Source: Escherichia phage SUT_E1620. From it: a DNA stretch of 64,000 nt. Positions 45,781 through 57,474 of this stretch are shown here, piece by piece. The position numbers and the translations under genes were made by a program. The stretch is taken from the sequence record OQ939939; one strand, written 5' to 3'. The notes under the pieces are model-generated. The model had not been told where the DNA came from, did not search any database, and saw nothing but the letters and a program-made list of their open reading frames with translations. Position 1 is the stretch's first letter, and the number at the start of each line of letters is the position of its first letter.

Positions 45781-46621
45781 TAAATTAGAGAACAGCGAGC
45801 CGATTACGCTGAGTGAGTTTAGTGATTCCTACTAGGATAGCTATTCCACTGAATAGAGTCGGTGAGTTGGAGACTAGTAAGTACTCTGAGAGAGGCTACG
45901 AGCTAACGCTTATTGCTATTGATAGGGAACTGAAAATCTGCGGAAAACTCGGGAGCTGTCCCGAAATCTCGTAAACTCTTCTCTAGTTTATGTTAGTGGG
46001 GTGTCGAACTGACTTATGTGATAACACTGCCGTCCTAGTATAAACGGTAATATCAAACCGTAACTGGTGGAAGATGCAGGTTCGAATCCTGCGGTCGGAA
46101 AGAATCAGATAACTCGGGCTTATACCGGATAAGCATTCGCTGCTGGAGTACATACTATGACGGTTCAGGAGGTACGCCGCCTGATCAGTATTAGGTTAGA
46201 ATCGAAACAGCTAAACCACGAGGAAACCTGACGGCCTCAACCAAACTCGGAACTCGGGATCACTGCCTAGTGTGTGCCCCGTTTAACATAGAGACTAGGC
46301 ATCGAAAATCGGAGGTGTGATTCTACCAGACCGCGTGAATATGAGAGTGGGAAATGCTGGCATGAGAGATGTCACTAATGGTGCCCAATAGTACAGGTAA
46401 TTCGCGATAATTCCTGTTGAGTGGCAGCAGTAGGCTGGGAGTCATGACCTAAGCCTAACCGAGTTCTTCACATACGGAGAACATAACCACAAAGTCACCC
46501 TGACTTAAACTGGAGGATATTGTCTGACGGAAGGGCTGCAGAGCTTAATCTGAGGGGGCTGACCCTACCTACCGTCGGGTATCTTTAAGAGCTTTTATAA
46601 GAGTTCTTAAAAATACCTAAA

Positions 46622-49654: not shown

Positions 49655-49930
49655 ATGTCAAAACGTGTTACTGCAACTGGTGTTGAAAGTGCTGTTTGTA
49701 AATCCTGGGGTGGCTGGGAAGGTGAGATTGAATGGCTTTATTTCTACGATGTAGAACTTCTGCCGGAAGTCAAAGCTAAATGTGTGGAAGCTGGTATGGC
49801 TCCTGATGCAAAGGCTGATATCGAAATCACCATGACTAAGCTAGAAGGTCGTGTAATTACGCTCAATGATGATTATGAAGAAGTGTTCGAGCTTCCATTC
49901 AAACTGAGTGTCACTCCTAGCTTCGAGTAA
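49655..49930 (+). CDS. Hypothetical acidic protein (91 aa)
   Basis: ORF after promoter with RBS GAAGGAG. Confidence 0.55.
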   Translation: MSKRVTATGVESAVCKSWGGWEGEIEWLYFYDVELLPEVKAKCVEAGMAPDAKADIEITMTKLEGRVITLNDDYEEVFELPFKLSVTPSFE

Positions 49931-49957
49931 CTGATATAGCACTGAGCAAGTTCTTTA

Positions 49958-50000
49958 AAATTTGACTTGCTCAGTCCTTCAAAACTTGATATAATATTTA
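49958..50000 (+). promoter_or_regulatory. Sigma70-type early promoter upstream of tRNA cluster
   Basis: TTGCTC (49967-49972), N17, TATAAT (49990-49995). Confidence 0.65.
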
Positions 50001-50118
50001 TCTAATTTGGAAACATATCTGAATGAGAAGTAATTAAGCGAGTTGCTTTTAGGGGTAAAGTCAGGAAATCCTGAAATATTCCACCTTGAGTTTAACCGAC
50101 TTACTTTTCATTCAAATA

Positions 50119-50196
50119 TGGGGGATTGGCTCAGTGGCGACGGCGCCTGGCTGTAGACCGGGTATATCACGCGGAGGTTCGAGTCCTCCATCCCCC
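50119..50196 (+). tRNA. tRNA-Tyr (anticodon GTA)
   Basis: Acceptor GGGGGAT/ATCCCCC, anticodon stem-loop CCTGG-CTGTAGA-CCGGG, extended variable region, T-loop GGAGGTTCGAGTCCTCC, CCA. Confidence 0.7.
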
Positions 50197-50207
50197 ACCA
50201 AATTTAA

Positions 50208-50279
50208 TGCACCTATCGTCTAATGGTTAGGACATCAGGATTTCAATCTGAGAATCGGAGTTCAATTCTCCGTGGGTGT
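50208..50279 (+). tRNA. tRNA-Glu (anticodon TTC), isotype tentative
   Basis: Acceptor GCACCTA/TGGGTGT, anticodon stem-loop TCAGG-ATTTCAA-TCTGA, T-loop CGGAGTTCAATTCTCCG, GCCA end. Confidence 0.6.
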
Positions 50280-50291
50280 GCCAATTAATAA

Positions 50292-50359
50292 TTGGGGTAC
50301 GCATAGGTTGCTAGTGGGCCTCCAAAACCCATGAAAAGGTTTCGAATACCTTTACCCCT
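50292..50359 (+). tRNA. tRNA-Trp (anticodon CCA), 5' boundary uncertain
   Basis: Anticodon loop CTCCAAA, T-arm AAGGTTTCGAATACCTT, 3' TACCCCT-G-CCA; short D-arm, position-1 mismatch. Confidence 0.5.
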
Positions 50360-50377
50360 GCCAGATAAGAAAATAGT

Positions 50378-50941
50378 ATGTTTAAGACAATACCTGAATT
50401 TCCTATGTATAAAATTTCTGAAACAGGCAAAGTTTACTCATTGCATGTTAACAGAGAAATAGCTACTTATCTTAACAATAAAGGTTATCCATGTGTTAAG
50501 CTAAGTAAAAATGGTGTTGAGCATACTCTTTTAATATCTAGACTATTATGCAGAGTATTTAAAGATTTAGAAGATCTTTATTCCTCTAAAGAAGTAGACC
50601 ATAAAGATAGAAATCCGGCAAATTTTGAACTAAGCAACCTACAAGTTCTTAGTAAAGAAGAGCACGTAATAAAAACATGTTCTGATAACAATATTAGTAG
50701 AAGAACGGATGTTTGTCCTATTTGTGGTGATACTAAGCATAAATCCTCAAAAGCCTGCTTAAAGTGTACTGCTTCGGCTAGGATTAAGAGTAGAGATATT
50801 ACAAAAGAAGATATAGAGTATTGGGTACGAAACTTCTCCTGGGCTAGAGCTTCAAGAGAACTTGGACTATCTGATAATGGACTCCGAAAGAGATATAAGG
50901 CTCTTGGGGGAGACCCTAAAAATATTTGCACCTTTAGCTGA
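50378..50941 (+). CDS. HNH homing endonuclease with C-terminal DNA-binding module
   Basis: HNH core (EVDHKDRNPANFELSNL), Cys cluster, C-terminal LSDNGLRKRYKALGG shared with ORF 52201..52782. Confidence 0.75.
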   Translation: MFKTIPEFPMYKISETGKVYSLHVNREIATYLNNKGYPCVKLSKNGVEHTLLISRLLCRVFKDLEDLYSSKEVDHKDRNPANFELSNLQVLSKEEHVIKTCSDNNISRRTDVCPICGDTKHKSSKACLKCTASARIKSRDITKEDIEYWVRNFSWARASRELGLSDNGLRKRYKALGGDPKNICTFS

Positions 50942-50999
50942 GATGGATTAGCGCTTGCCTGAAGAGCTTGAGAGGTTGGATCGTTACCAACGGGGTGCA
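50928..50999 (+). tRNA. Candidate tRNA-Phe (anticodon GAA) with non-canonical T-loop and weak anticodon stem
   Basis: 7/7 acceptor pairing GCACCTT/GGGGTGC, D-stem GCTG/TAGC, anticodon loop CTGAAGA, T-stem GTTGG/CCAAC with loop ATCGTTA (54/58 swapped), A73-CCA; anticodon stem has two U-U mismatches. Confidence 0.45.
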
Positions 51000-51019
51000 C
51001 CAATTTGAAGGAGATGCTG

Positions 51020-51292
51020 ATGCATCCTGAAAACTTCTTTATTTACTGTGCGGATAAGTCGCTGAAACGTAGAATTAACAAAGTCTATCATTATCGTGCC
51101 AGTCAACAGCCTTATGTTTACGCTTTTGACGGAGATCACATTCCACTAGATCAATTAGCGTGTGATTACATGGTATTGAAGAACTTTGATGAGACAAAGA
51201 TCTCAAGCGTTCATAATCGACAGAATCCACTAACGTGGAAGTATAAGAAGAAAAAGAAAGGCATCATATTTCTGAAAAATGTAGTTGCTTAA
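51020..51292 (+). CDS. Hypothetical protein (~90 aa)
   Basis: ATG after AAGGAG RBS (track ORF starts at upstream TTG). Confidence 0.5.
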   Translation: MHPENFFIYCADKSLKRRINKVYHYRASQQPYVYAFDGDHIPLDQLACDYMVLKNFDETKISSVHNRQNPLTWKYKKKKKGIIFLKNVVA

Positions 51293-51320
51293 CCGCTTAA
51301 AGTTCTGTATAATTATTACA
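51280..51320 (+). promoter_or_regulatory. Sigma70-type early promoter
   Basis: TTGCTT (51285-51290), N16, TATAAT (51307-51312). Confidence 0.6.
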
Positions 51321-51342
51321 TAAATTGAACTGGAGAAGCAAC

Positions 51343-51567
51343 ATGACTGAACAAGAACTGAAAGAACGTAAGCTGGTAATGCTTCGTTTACTAAACATTT
51401 TCTCTGGTATGGATGGTGGAATTGACTTCATTAATCTACGTTGCTTTGTAGAAGAAGCAGAAGGCGAATCTATCACTAAAATTCTTAAACATATGGGATT
51501 ACTTTTAGATGCTGCTGGTGTAGCTACTGAATATAAACTAGAAGATTTGCCGGAGCGTGTTAAATGA
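51343..51567 (+). CDS. Hypothetical protein (~74 aa)
   Basis: ATG (MTEQELK) after GGAGAAG RBS; track start 51325 lies at the transcription start. Confidence 0.5.
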   Translation: MTEQELKERKLVMLRLLNIFSGMDGGIDFINLRCFVEEAEGESITKILKHMGLLLDAAGVATEYKLEDLPERVK

Positions 51568-51755
51568 AAAAGTTAGTCAAATTTAAGTGTTGTGGTTCTG
51601 AACATATCTTCACACGTTTGCGTGAATTTAAAATGTGTAAGTGTGGTAAATCAGGCTATGATGCTGGAGACGGTTATTACTCCCGTACTCTAGGAGATTT
51701 CAACGATTTAGAATTCGTTGATCTCGAAAAACAAGATAAATCGACCGTTGGCTGA
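51564..51755 (+). CDS. Small Cys-rich protein (63 aa)
   Basis: CCGSEH...CKCGKSG zinc-ribbon-like; 3' end overlaps tRNA-Cys. Confidence 0.5.
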   Translation: MKKLVKFKCCGSEHIFTRLREFKMCKCGKSGYDAGDGYYSRTLGDFNDLEFVDLEKQDKSTVG

Positions 51756-51814
51756 ATGGCTTAGGCGGAGGCCTGCAAAACCTCCTTATGTGAGTTCGAA
51801 TCTCATGCGGTCGT
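51742..51814 (+). tRNA. tRNA-Cys (anticodon GCA)
   Basis: Acceptor CGACCGT/GCGGTCG, anticodon stem-loop GAGGC-CTGCAAA-ACCTC, T-loop GTGAGTTCGAATCTCAT, T73, CCA. Confidence 0.7.
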
Positions 51815-51825
51815 CCAAATTTTTA

Positions 51826-51905
51826 GGGTCGTTAGCCAAGCGGTTTGGCGGTGGACTGTTAATCCATGTCGAAAGACAACGTAGGTTCGAATCCTACACG
51901 GCCCG
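51826..51905 (+). tRNA. tRNA with GTT (Asn) anticodon and a 13-nt hairpin variable arm
   Basis: Acceptor GGGTCGT/ACGGCCC, D-stem GCCA/TGGC, anticodon stem-loop GTGGA-CTGTTAA-TCCAT, variable arm GTCGAAAGACAAC, T-loop GTAGGTTCGAATCCTAC, G73, CCA. Confidence 0.6.
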
Positions 51906-52200: not shown

Positions 52201-52782
52201 ATGCACGGAATATCCTTACCCATTCCAGGGTTTGAGGAGTACTTAGTAAGTTTGGATGGGTTAGTATTTAGTATCAAATCAAACAAAATACTAACCCCAA
52301 TAACCAGTAATTACGGATACTTATCTATACGTCTCCATAAAAATGGTCAACAGAGAAATACCGGTGTACATAGGATTTTAGCATGTGCATTTAAGAAATT
52401 ACCAAGTCTAGACTCTGAACTAGAAGTTGACCATATTAACACAGACATTACTTATTGGGGTCTTAATAACTTACAAGTGCTCACAAAAGAGCAGCATCTA
52501 GAAAAGACTTTAAAAGATAAAGGATTTAGTAAACTAAACCATGATAATTGTTGTAAGGATTGTGGTAAAGCTATTTCTTTAAAAGCTGAAAAATGTCAGG
52601 AGTGCTCTTCACATAAACCAAAAGATATCTCTATAACTAAAGAAATAATCGAGGTTACAGTAAGAGAGCTAGGCTGGTCAGGTGCAGGGAGAAAGTTAAG
52701 TTATTCAGATAATGGGTTGCGTAAAAGATACACTTCTTTAGGAGGCAATCCTAAAGAACTTAAAAAGTTAAAGGTACTATAG
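52201..52782 (+). CDS. HNH homing endonuclease (paralog of 50378..50941)
   Basis: HNH core (EVDHINTDITYWGLNNL), Cys cluster, C-terminal LSYSDNGLRKRYTSLGG. Confidence 0.75.
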   Translation: MHGISLPIPGFEEYLVSLDGLVFSIKSNKILTPITSNYGYLSIRLHKNGQQRNTGVHRILACAFKKLPSLDSELEVDHINTDITYWGLNNLQVLTKEQHLEKTLKDKGFSKLNHDNCCKDCGKAISLKAEKCQECSSHKPKDISITKEIIEVTVRELGWSGAGRKLSYSDNGLRKRYTSLGGNPKELKKLKVL

Positions 52783-57392: not shown

Positions 57393-57464
57393 TGCTCCTA
57401 AAGCATTGCTGGCGATGCAGTTGCCTTGTAAGCATCTGAACCGGGTTCGATTCCTGGTGGGAGC
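57393..57464 (+). tRNA. tRNA-Thr (anticodon TGT)
   Basis: Acceptor GCTCCTA/TGGGAGC, D-stem GCAT/ATGC, anticodon loop CTTGTAA, T-loop CCGGGTTCGATTCCTGG, A73, CCA. Confidence 0.7.
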
Positions 57465-57474
57465 ACCAAATTTA

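What the first reader, a model, noticed from the sequence alone, without database searches (positions are those of the whole stretch)
50928..50999. Candidate tRNA-Phe with swapped T54/A58 and a two-mismatch anticodon stem
The acceptor stem pairs 7/7, the D-stem and T-stem pair, the end is A73-CCA, and the anticodon loop CUGAAGA gives GAA (Phe), an isotype otherwise missing from the island. However the T-loop is ATCGTTA rather than TTCGAAT, which looks like a reciprocal swap of the 54/58 pair, and the anticodon stem has two central U-U mismatches. It may be a functional atypical tRNA or a fresh pseudogene.
Basis: seen in the sequence. Interest (0 to 1): 0.5.

Follow-up and report, generated by a model that had tools for sequence, protein, structure and literature searches.

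The report
Phage tRNA-Phe with swapped T-loop pair
This is a real, conserved phenylalanine tRNA gene of a T5-like phage whose normally invariant T-loop pair U54-A58 is reversed to A54-U58, a reversal that turns out to be common in phage tRNAs and almost absent from cellular genomes.

Summary
Window 50928-51002 (+) is a 72-nt cloverleaf plus CCA with anticodon GAA, T-loop AUCGUUA (A54/U58) and U.U mismatches at 28.42 and 29.41. Rfam scores it 33.4 bits (cutoff 29). ARAGORN misses it only because both oddities occur together.

It is not a pseudogene. It is the syntenic orthologue of the T5/BF23 tRNA-Phe gene and the only tRNA-Phe in the island. It is identical in relatives whose flanks differ by 10%, and the same T-arm occurs in 70 sequenced phages.

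Sister alleles at the same locus carry canonical U54/A58, so the pair covaries. Across 60 related phage tRNAs the cloverleaf shows strong compensatory change, with 54/58 as A.U in 35, U.A in 15, C.A in 8, A.A in 2 and never U.U.

A T-arm scan found at least 93 more A54/U58 tRNAs of about 18 anticodons in viral contigs. In bacterial and archaeal genomes it found only 3, all inside dense tRNA arrays.

The mismatched anticodon arm is also conserved across phages of several families.

Best reading: a functional elongator tRNA-Phe. The gene is known; the natural A54.U58 class appears undescribed. No expression or charging data exist for this allele.

The parts
50928..51002 (+). tRNA-Phe(GAA) gene, 72-nt body (4-nt variable loop) plus encoded CCA (51000-51002)
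   Evidence: Rfam RF00005 33.4 bits over 50928-50999. Identical sequence is annotated tRNA-Phe in IrmaTschudi and BSP22A. ARAGORN finds it at a 90% threshold.
50961..50963 (+). Anticodon GAA within loop CUGAAGA (50959-50965), with C32, U33 and G37
   Evidence: Read from the sequence and the Rfam alignment.
50980..50986 (+). T-loop AUCGUUA: A54 (50980) and U58 (50984) replace U54/A58. U55, C56, G57, U59 and A60 are retained, and the loop is closed by G53-C61.
   Evidence: Sequence. 54/58 covaries across 60 relatives: A.U 35, U.A 15, C.A 8, A.A 2. The same loop occurs in 93 other distinct phage tRNAs.
50954..50970 (+). Anticodon arm CUUGC-CUGAAGA-GCUUG with U28.U42 (50955/50969) and U29.U41 (50956/50968) between C27-G43 and G30-C40/C31-G39
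   Evidence: The same arm is conserved in T5/BF23, 7-11 and uncultured phages with different acceptor and T stems. EcS1, RP7 and Cronus carry other non-Watson-Crick combinations at these pairs.
50937..50952 (+). D-arm GCUG-AGAUGGAU-UAGC (G18, G19 present; U8-A14 canonical; U21 in place of A21)
   Evidence: Invariant in all 60 relatives. It was the seed of the IMG/VR scan.
50378..50941 (+). Free-standing HNH/NUMOD4 homing endonuclease ORF (187 aa). Its last four codons and its TGA stop lie inside tRNA-Phe positions 1-14.
   Evidence: Pfam HNH_3 and NUMOD4. A relative annotates it 'H-N-H endonuclease F-TflII'. Relatives lack it, and there the Trp-like CCA end and tRNA-Phe are 7 nt apart.
50293..50363 (+). 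Sub-threshold tRNA-Trp-like gene (anticodon CCA), orthologue of BF23 'tRNAW', immediately upstream of the endonuclease insertion
   Evidence: Alignment to the BF23, ende and IrmaTschudi spacers. Rfam 22.6 bits, below the gathering score of 29, with a shortened D-arm.
51020..51292 (+). Downstream small ORF (homologue of BF23 'ORF trn 2.6'), with RBS GGAG at 51010-51013, 8 nt after the CCA. The tRNA is therefore embedded in a mixed mRNA/tRNA transcription unit.
   Evidence: ORF list. Annotation of BF23 and IrmaTschudi. No terminator-like site on the + strand in 49900-51900.

Best explanation
Window 50928-51002 is the functional elongator tRNA-Phe(GAA) gene of this T5-like (Epseptimavirus-type) phage. 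It is transcribed as part of the + strand tRNA/small-ORF island and cut out of the polycistronic precursor by the host tRNA-processing enzymes (RNase P at the 5' end; the CCA is encoded). It is then charged by the host PheRS and reads UUC/UUU. Its T-loop carries a reversed 54-58 tertiary pair (A54.U58 instead of U54.A58), which most likely keeps a trans Hoogsteen/Watson-Crick A.U pair stacked on G53-C61, with the roles of the two bases exchanged. The elbow (G18-U55, G19-C56) and the L-shape would then be preserved. [quoted passage not shown] Shown here: gene identity, orthology, purifying selection, covariation of all four stems and of 54/58, and the phage-wide spread of the A54/U58 loop. Inferred: processing, charging, decoding, and the geometry of the swapped pair.
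For: 1) Rfam tRNA model 33.4 bits against a gathering score of 29, full length. 2) Synteny: the gene sits between tRNA-Glu/Trp and the 'trn 2.6' ORF, exactly as tRNA-Phe does in BF23/T5, IrmaTschudi, BSP22A and ende. 3) Purifying selection: 0/75 differences in the tRNA against 77/745 (10.3%) in the adjoining DNA versus IrmaTschudi, P about 3e-4. The identical T-arm occurs in 70 phage records. 4) It is the only tRNA-Phe in the island, here and in the lab phage IrmaTschudi. 5) The sister allele (ende type) differs only in the T-arm, by paired changes: G52-C62 to C-G, A54/U58 to U54/A58, U7.G66 to U7-A66. 6) Across 60 distinct relatives, 96.7% of cells pair against 65.5% in shuffles, and the covariation score is 0.764 against 0.166, with 0/500 shuffles as high. 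54/58 is A.U 35, U.A 15, other 10. U58 never occurs without A54 in about 1,090 phage cloverleaves scanned with an unconstrained loop. 7) Switches between states occur in near-identical backgrounds: window vs L009, L123 vs L029, L121 vs L110. 8) Other A54/U58 phage tRNAs score 52-64 bits. 9) HMD-P2 carries A54/U58 with a perfect anticodon stem and scores 44.7 bits. 10) Determinants shared with bacterial tRNA-Phe identity are present: G34, A35, A36, A73, U59 (table in PMC9976931). The T5 tRNA-Phe, with the same body but a canonical T-loop, has been studied as a substrate of E. coli PheRS (Kholod et al. 1997, cited in PMC9976931).
Against: There are no expression, processing or aminoacylation data for the A54/U58 allele. 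The in vitro work concerns the T5 allele with a canonical T-loop, and I could read it only through a review. The covariance score is the second lowest in the island. E. coli PheRS determinants U20, U45 and A26:G44 are not matched: the tRNA has A20/U21, G45 and G26:A44. RNAfold's minimum-energy fold keeps the cloverleaf but slips the anticodon arm into a 26-29/37-40 register, with a z-score of only -1.56. A swapped trans Watson-Crick/Hoogsteen pair is not isosteric with the original with respect to the backbone, so some loss of elbow stability is possible.
Confidence: 0.8

Rival explanations
1. The non-canonical features are adaptive rather than merely tolerated. A54.U58 and/or the unpaired centre of the anticodon stem would make the phage tRNA a poor substrate for host or competitor enzymes that recognise canonical tRNA (T-loop or anticodon-stem tRNases, TrmA/TruB), while it still works in translation. 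This extends the best explanation rather than excluding it.
For: By the T-arm scan, the A54/U58 loop is about 100-fold commoner per base in viral contigs than in cellular genomes: 98/136 pattern matches are cloverleaves in IMG/VR against 3/119 in GTDB genomes. It spans about 18 anticodons and many D-arm types, which suggests repeated selection. The mismatched pairs stay non-Watson-Crick through further substitutions (U.C, A.C, C.C) in EcS1, RP7 and Cronus. tRNases that cut the T-loop between T and pseudouridine exist (CdiA-CT E479, PMC9086364). A phage-defence Schlafen cuts the anticodon stem at 29-31/39-41, and tRNA-Phe(GAA) is among its targets (PMC13056530). Phage tRNAs are known to escape anticodon nucleases through sequence changes (PMC10264068).
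Against: No nuclease or modification enzyme was tested. Canonical and swapped alleles coexist in very similar T5-like phages on the same hosts, which fits near-neutral compensated drift as well. Only one tRNA of the 28 in this island has the swap.
Confidence: 0.25
2. A tRNA-like processing element. The cloverleaf is kept mainly as an RNase P/RNase E punctuation signal that separates the endonuclease mRNA from the downstream ORFs (or limits endonuclease expression), and the RNA is not used in translation.
For: The endonuclease ORF ends inside the tRNA: its stop codon lies at tRNA positions 11-13, so 5' processing would remove it. Two other ORFs in the island end inside tRNA-Cys and tRNA-Asp in the same way. 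The next RBS starts 8 nt after the CCA.
Against: The identical gene is kept in relatives that lack the endonuclease. The anticodon loop, the GAA anticodon, A73, CCA and U59 are conserved, which a mere processing signal would not require. It is the only source of a phage tRNA-Phe.
Confidence: 0.07
3. A recent pseudogene: a tRNA-Phe gene inactivated by T-loop and anticodon-stem mutations, perhaps collateral to the endonuclease insertion 7 nt upstream.
For: Low covariance score (33.4 bits) and no ARAGORN call. Two universally conserved features are violated. Degenerate tRNA-like sequences do exist in the same island (46029-46100 and 50293-50363).
Against: There are 0/75 changes against 10% divergence in the flanks. 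The same allele occurs in 70 genomes, with and without the endonuclease. The two T-loop changes are reciprocal and recur in more than 120 independent phage tRNA sequences with intact, covarying stems. The mismatches are shared with T5/BF23, whose tRNA-Phe has been used as a PheRS substrate.
Confidence: 0.03

Closest known systems
Bacteriophage T5 / BF23 tRNA-Phe (gene tRNAF, GenBank AJ604530)
   Same: Same locus, between tRNA-Glu/Trp and ORF trn 2.6. The acceptor stem, D-arm, anticodon arm (including both U.U mismatches), variable loop, A73 and CCA are identical.
   Different: T5/BF23 has T-arm GUUCG-UUCAAUU-CGAAC with canonical U54/A58. The window has GUUGG-AUCGUUA-CCAAC with A54/U58, plus G66 instead of A66. 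Rfam scores are 45.8 against 33.4 bits.
A54.A58 T-loops of eukaryotic initiator tRNA-Met and eukaryotic tRNA-Ala(AGC)
   Same: A natural departure from U54 in the 54-58 tertiary pair, accompanied by a purine at position 60 (PMC7566577; PMC7912444). The phage A54 loops also mostly carry A60.
   Different: Those tRNAs keep A58, whose Hoogsteen edge is unchanged. Here position 58 is U, so the two bases must exchange roles. [quoted passage not shown]
Escherichia coli tRNA-Phe (pheU/pheV)
   Same: Anticodon GAA, A73, U59, G10-C25, G18/G19, G53-C61, encoded CCA.
   Different: There is no detectable DNA similarity in 5,426 E. coli genomes. The D-loop, 26:44, variable loop, positions 32 and 37 (G37 instead of A37), anticodon stem and T-loop all differ, so this is not a recently captured host gene.
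tRNA-Phe genes of other cultured phages with the same D-arm (EcS1, Cronus, arall, RP7, Bcp1)
   Same: Same D-arm and the same AUCGUUA T-loop. EcS1, RP7 and Cronus also have non-Watson-Crick 28.42/29.41.
   Different: Different acceptor and T stems (compensated) and different phage families: Straboviridae, Stephanstirmvirinae, Herelleviridae, and the Novosibvirus genus of Demerecviridae.

Membership tests
tRNA (Rfam RF00005) | Full-length match to the covariance model at or above the curated gathering score | tested here: met
   33.4 bits against 29, model positions 1-71.
tRNA (Rfam RF00005) | Four-arm cloverleaf supported by compensatory changes in relatives | tested here: met
   In 60 relatives, 96.7% of cells pair and 16 of 22 pairs have double changes. 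The covariation score is 0.764 against 0.166 in shuffles, and slid controls score 0.13 or less.
tRNA (Rfam RF00005) | Conserved core nucleotides U8, A14, G18, G19, U33, G53-C61, U55, C56 | tested here: met
   All are present in the sequence and invariant in the family alignment.
tRNA (Rfam RF00005) | U54-A58 reverse-Hoogsteen pair in the T-loop | tested here: not met
   The tRNA has A54 and U58. The pair is reversed rather than lost, and it covaries with U54/A58 in sister alleles.
tRNA (Rfam RF00005) | Five Watson-Crick/G.U pairs in the anticodon stem | tested here: not met
   Three pairs plus U28.U42 and U29.U41. The mismatches are conserved in the lineage.
Elongator tRNA-Phe | Anticodon GAA with U33, and discriminator A73 | tested here: met
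   Loop CUGAAGA and A73 followed by CCA. The identity set is taken from PMC9976931.
Elongator tRNA-Phe | Additional E. coli PheRS determinants U20, U45, U59, 10-25 and A26:G44 | tested here: inconclusive
   U59 and G10-C25 are present. Position 20 is A (U at 21), position 45 is G, and 26:44 is G:A. The determinant list is from PMC9976931.
Elongator tRNA-Phe | Aminoacylation with phenylalanine and use in translation | not testable with these tools
   Only indirect evidence: T5 tRNA-Phe, which differs from this tRNA only in the T-arm and at position 66, was studied as a substrate of E. coli PheRS (Kholod et al. 1997, via PMC9976931).
T5-like (Markadamsvirinae) tRNA-Phe orthologue group | Same genomic slot and near-identical sequence | tested here: met
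   Synteny and 90-100% identity over the gene in 517 records.
tRNA pseudogene | Relaxed constraint: substitutions at the flank rate, uncompensated stem changes, degeneration in relatives | tested here: not met
   0/75 differences against 77/745 in the flanks. All differences from the sister allele are paired. The gene is conserved in 70 genomes.

The most novel reading that the evidence does not exclude
Reversed reverse-Hoogsteen pairs (A54.U58, and in a subset also A8.U14) define a phage-specific tRNA architecture that recurs across isotypes and phage families. It would be maintained because it lets phage tRNAs escape host or competitor enzymes that read the canonical T-loop or core (tRNases, TrmA/TruB-dependent surveillance) while remaining competent for charging and decoding. 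The T5-like phages, with both alleles at one locus in lab-tractable strains, would be the natural test system.
Probability: 0.25. Interest if true: 0.8.

Novelty: new variant of a known kind. Interest (0 to 1): 0.55.

Why it matters
U54-A58 is treated as a near-universal tRNA constant. The reviews I could read list only A54.A58 in some eukaryotic tRNAs as a natural exception, and a full-text search for A54 + U58 + tRNA found nothing relevant.

This gene gives a natural, conserved A54.U58 tRNA in phages of E. coli and Salmonella, including the BASEL-collection phage IrmaTschudi. A sister allele differs essentially only in that pair. That makes a ready-made system for asking what the 54-58 pair is for: elbow geometry, m5U54/pseudouridine-55 modification, or recognition by nucleases.

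There is also a practical point. The gene is unannotated in about two-thirds of the listed records that contain it, and ARAGORN misses it at default settings. Phage tRNA repertoires, and the 'missing isotype' statements built on them, are therefore systematically incomplete.

Tried and rejected
1) Link between the endonuclease and the T-arm allele (co-conversion or target-site immunity). Rejected because the identical A54/U58 allele occurs in phages without the endonuclease (IrmaTschudi, BSP22A, Stitch).

2) Alternative anticodon-arm register 26-29/37-40 proposed by RNAfold. Rejected because the RP7 sequence breaks it (A26.C40, A29.G37), while relatives with perfect stems covary in the canonical 27-43 register.

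3) Recent capture of a host gene. Rejected: no match in 5,426 E. coli genomes.

4) The D-arm GAGAYGGAUUAG as a requirement for the swapped loop. Rejected: only 3 of 93 A54/U58 tRNAs from the T-arm scan have it.

5) Literature searches for A54/U58, for T-loops of phage tRNAs, and for non-canonical tRNAs gave no description of this class. Kholod et al. 1997 is not held.

6) BLAST of two metagenomic A54/U58 tRNAs (Asp, Thr) against cultured phages. Only Ralstonia phage RSP15 matched one of them, and the gene is unannotated there.

7) The promoter/terminator scan around the gene found nothing informative.

8) The GATC (Dam) site created at the DNA level by GGATCG was considered as an explanation. 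It is unlikely, because the loop also occurs in a Bacillus phage.

Full report
OBSERVATION

Window 50928-51002 (+) reads GCACCUU-UA-GCUG-AGAUGGAU-UAGC-G-CUUGC-CUGAAGA-GCUUG-AGAG-GUUGG-AUCGUUA-CCAAC-GGGGUGC-A-CCA.
- a 7/7 acceptor stem, two pairs of which are G.U;
- paired D and T stems;
- anticodon GAA, then A73 and CCA;
- T-loop AUCGUUA, with A at 54 and U at 58;
- U.U at 28.42 and 29.41.

Rfam's tRNA model matches exactly these coordinates at 33.4 bits (gathering score 29) and marks only the two anticodon-stem pairs as non-standard. ARAGORN reports 27 tRNAs in the 46.6-58 kb island but not this one. Neither tool finds another GAA tRNA in the window. The other 27 tRNAs all have canonical UUCRANY T-loops.

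An in-silico test shows why ARAGORN fails. Restoring either the T-loop (A54U + U58A) or the anticodon stem rescues detection. Either single T-loop change does not. At a 90% score threshold the native sequence is called tRNA-Phe.

ORTHOLOGY AND CONSTRAINT

The window is a T5-like phage (Demerecviridae, Epseptimavirus-like). The gene sits in the slot that holds tRNA-Phe in BF23/T5 (gene tRNAF), IrmaTschudi, BSP22A and ende. That slot lies downstream of tRNA-Tyr, tRNA-Glu and tRNA-Trp and upstream of the small ORF 'trn 2.6'.

The 75 nt are identical in IrmaTschudi, BSP22A and Stitch. Against IrmaTschudi there are 0/75 differences in the tRNA and 77/745 (10.3%) in the adjoining DNA, giving P about 3e-4 for no change at the flank rate. 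The identical T-arm is present in 70 records of the phage collection. Most of the listed rows carry no tRNA annotation there. In IrmaTschudi, a lab phage of E. coli K-12, this is the only tRNA-Phe in the whole tRNA island. A fresh pseudogene is therefore excluded.

THE 54/58 SWAP COVARIES

At the same locus other T5-like phages carry canonical T-loops: UUCAAUU in T5/BF23 and UUCGAUA in ende. The ende allele differs from the window allele only within the T-arm and its junction, and only by paired changes: G52-C62 to C-G, A54/U58 to U54/A58, and U7.G66 to U7-A66.

HMD-P2, Proteus phage RP7 and the T4-like phage EcS1 share AUCGUUA. HMD-P2 combines it with a perfectly paired anticodon stem and compensated acceptor and T stems. 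Rfam scores separate the two effects:

| Phage | T-loop pair | Anticodon stem | Rfam bits |
|---|---|---|---|
| window | A54/U58 | mismatched | 33.4 |
| EcS1 | A54/U58 | mismatched | 36.0 |
| RP7 | A54/U58 | mismatched | 38.3 |
| HMD-P2 | A54/U58 | perfect | 44.7 |
| ende | U54/A58 | mismatched | 42.4 |
| BF23/T5 | U54/A58 | mismatched | 45.8 |
| Providencia PSTCR5 | U54/A58 | perfect | 49.2 |

A scan of IMG/VR for the invariant D-arm (which is blind to the T-loop) returned 120 loci. These yielded 60 distinct 72-nt cloverleaves. On that alignment:
- 96.7% of pair cells are standard pairs, against 65.5% in shuffles;
- the covariation score is 0.764 against 0.166, with 0/500 shuffles as high;
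- slid controls score 0.13 or less;
- the 54/58 columns are A.U in 35 sequences, U.A in 15, C.A in 8 and A.A in 2.

Switches between states occur in otherwise near-identical backgrounds (window vs L009, L123 vs L029, L121 vs L110). The covariation therefore reflects several events.

A PHAGE-WIDE CLASS

I scanned for the T-arm alone (GGATCGTTACC, then 11 nt, then CCA). In IMG/VR this gave 136 matches, of which 98 sit in full cloverleaves. These comprise 93 distinct sequences and about 18 anticodons: Asp, Thr, Tyr, Phe, Met, Lys, Ile, Asn, Ala, Glu, His, Gly, Val and Ser. Only 3 have the D-arm of the Phe family. Rfam scores such tRNAs at 52-64 bits inside large phage tRNA arrays.

The same pattern in one genome per bacterial or archaeal species gave 119 matches, of which only 3 are cloverleaves. 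Two of these lie in arrays of 18-20 tRNAs on MAG contigs and the third among at least four tRNAs on a 4.3-kb contig, contexts resembling the phage tRNA arrays. Both scans stopped at 120 loci, so the contrast (72% against 2.5% real among matches) is an order-of-magnitude estimate.

A census with a completely unconstrained 7-nt loop over about 1,090 phage cloverleaves gave U.A 934, A.U 112, A.A 28, C.A 12, G.G 2 and G.A 1. U58 never appeared without A54, and both A54 classes prefer A60.

Cultured carriers of an A54/U58 tRNA-Phe include E. coli phages EcS1 and arall, Erwinia phage Cronus, Proteus phage RP7 and Bacillus phage Bcp1. No similar sequence exists in 5,426 complete E. coli genomes.

THE ANTICODON-STEM MISMATCHES

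The arm CUUGC-CUGAAGA-GCUUG, with U28.U42 and U29.U41, is shared by T5/BF23, the Epseptimavirus alleles, Salmonella phage 7-11 and several uncultured phages. Their acceptor and T stems differ through compensated changes.

Where the arm has changed, the two central pairs remain non-Watson-Crick: U.C/U.U in EcS1, U.U/A.C in RP7 and U.U/C.C in Cronus. More distant relatives have ordinary pairs there. Listeria phage LP-048, for example, has CUUGC/GCAAG.

This pattern points to constraint or selection rather than decay. The reason is not shown. RNAfold prefers a slipped 4-bp helix (26-29/37-40) for this arm, but RP7 breaks that register, and the family covaries in the canonical one.

CONTEXT

A 187-aa HNH/NUMOD4 homing endonuclease ORF occupies 50378-50941. 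A relative annotates its homologue as F-TflII. It is inserted precisely into the 7-nt spacer that separates the CCA of a tRNA-Trp-like gene from tRNA-Phe in relatives. Its last codons and its TGA stop lie within tRNA positions 1-14.

The tRNA-Trp-like gene (50293-50363) is the orthologue of BF23 'tRNAW'. It scores only 22.6 bits and has a shortened D-arm.

The next ORF's RBS begins 8 nt after the CCA. No + strand terminator-like site is found nearby. The tRNA is therefore part of a mixed tRNA/mRNA transcript, which is an inference.

MECHANISM

Best-supported reading (confidence about 0.8): a functional elongator tRNA-Phe, processed by host enzymes, charged by host PheRS and decoding UUC/UUU.

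The universally shared Phe determinants G34, A35, A36 and A73 are present, and so is the E. coli determinant U59. U20, U45 and A26:G44 are not matched (PMC9976931). That review also records that T5 tRNA-Phe has been studied as a substrate of E. coli PheRS, with Mg-dependent identity requirements (Kholod et al. 1997). T5 tRNA-Phe shares everything with the window gene except the T-arm and position 66.

The covariation argues that A54.U58 forms a pair that replaces U54.A58, presumably the same trans Watson-Crick/Hoogsteen A.U pair with roles exchanged. The geometry is not tested here. From established knowledge, A54 cannot receive the m5U54 methylation made by TrmA.

Whether the swap and the mismatches are adaptive is open (about 0.25). 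T-loop-cutting and anticodon-stem-cutting tRNases exist (PMC9086364; PMC13056530), and phage tRNAs are known to evade anticodon nucleases (PMC10264068). Against this, both alleles coexist in very similar phages.

COMPARISON AND NOVELTY

The gene itself is known: it is the T5-family tRNA-Phe, and the identical allele is annotated in some records. What I could not find described is a natural A54.U58 T-loop:
- a full-text search for A54 + U58 + tRNA returned nothing relevant;
- a T-loop review gives U54 as universal except A54 in eukaryotic initiators, with A58 conserved (PMC7912444);
- a survey of unusual tertiary pairs reports only A54.A58, and only in eukaryotes (PMC7566577);
- a review of non-canonical tRNAs does not mention it (PMC7609411).

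The library lacks most subscription-journal papers, so prior description cannot be excluded.

I rate the finding as a new variant of a known kind, with interest 0.55. As a gene it is ordinary. As a natural, genetically tractable exception to a near-universal tRNA rule, and as a systematic annotation blind spot, it is worth attention.

Noticed in passing
window 50293-50363 (+): tRNA-Trp-like sequence (anticodon CCA, encoded CCA end), orthologous to BF23 'tRNAW'. It is missed by ARAGORN and scores below the Rfam threshold (22.6 bits), with a shortened D-arm and a U53-A61 closing pair. BSP22A and Stitch carry a different, canonical tRNA-Trp allele in this slot. Whether this phage has a working tRNA-Trp is unclear.
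   Followed up: partly
window 50378-50941, 51564-51755, 52201-52782 (+): Three ORFs end inside the 5' part of the next tRNA gene: an HNH/NUMOD4 endonuclease inside tRNA-Phe, a DUF7695 ORF inside tRNA-Cys, and a second HNH/NUMOD4 endonuclease inside tRNA-Asp. RNase P cleavage of the precursor would therefore remove their stop codons. This may couple tRNA processing to expression of these ORFs.
   Followed up: no
window 46029-46100 (+): Weak tRNA-like match (Rfam 29.3 bits, just at threshold) with a canonical UUCGAAU T-arm. It has only 5/7 acceptor pairs, no convincing anticodon arm and no CCA, so it is probably a degenerate tRNA remnant at the left edge of the island.
   Followed up: partly
window 57394-57468 (+); loci L250-L368: The island's tRNA-Thr(UGU) has A8 and U14, so the other universal reverse-Hoogsteen pair (U8-A14) is also reversed. 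Among phage cloverleaves, A8/U14 is enriched in the A54/U58 class: 18 of 89 against 12 of 766 in the U54/A58 class. An example is a metagenomic tRNA-Asp family with both pairs swapped.
   Followed up: partly
loci L010-L129 (alignment A3): One invariant D-arm (UUAGCUGAGAYGGAUUAGC) is shared by phage tRNAs with anticodons GAA (Phe), GAU (Ile, 11 distinct sequences), UGC (Ala) and GUU (Asn). This suggests anticodon or identity switching within a single phage tRNA lineage.
   Followed up: no
phage records listed (e.g. Stitch, 100268_sal2, phiR2-01, Sw2, Sepoy): The identical A54/U58 tRNA-Phe is present but unannotated (or overlaid by a 'hypothetical protein') in about two-thirds of the listed records. 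Bacillus phage Bcp1 (L372) and Ralstonia phage RSP15 also carry unannotated A54/U58 tRNAs.
   Followed up: partly
L272 13913-14302; L305 10370-10760: Two uncultured phage contigs with large tRNA arrays also encode a tmRNA, matching both the Betaproteobacteria tmRNA and the permuted tmRNA models in Rfam.
   Followed up: no
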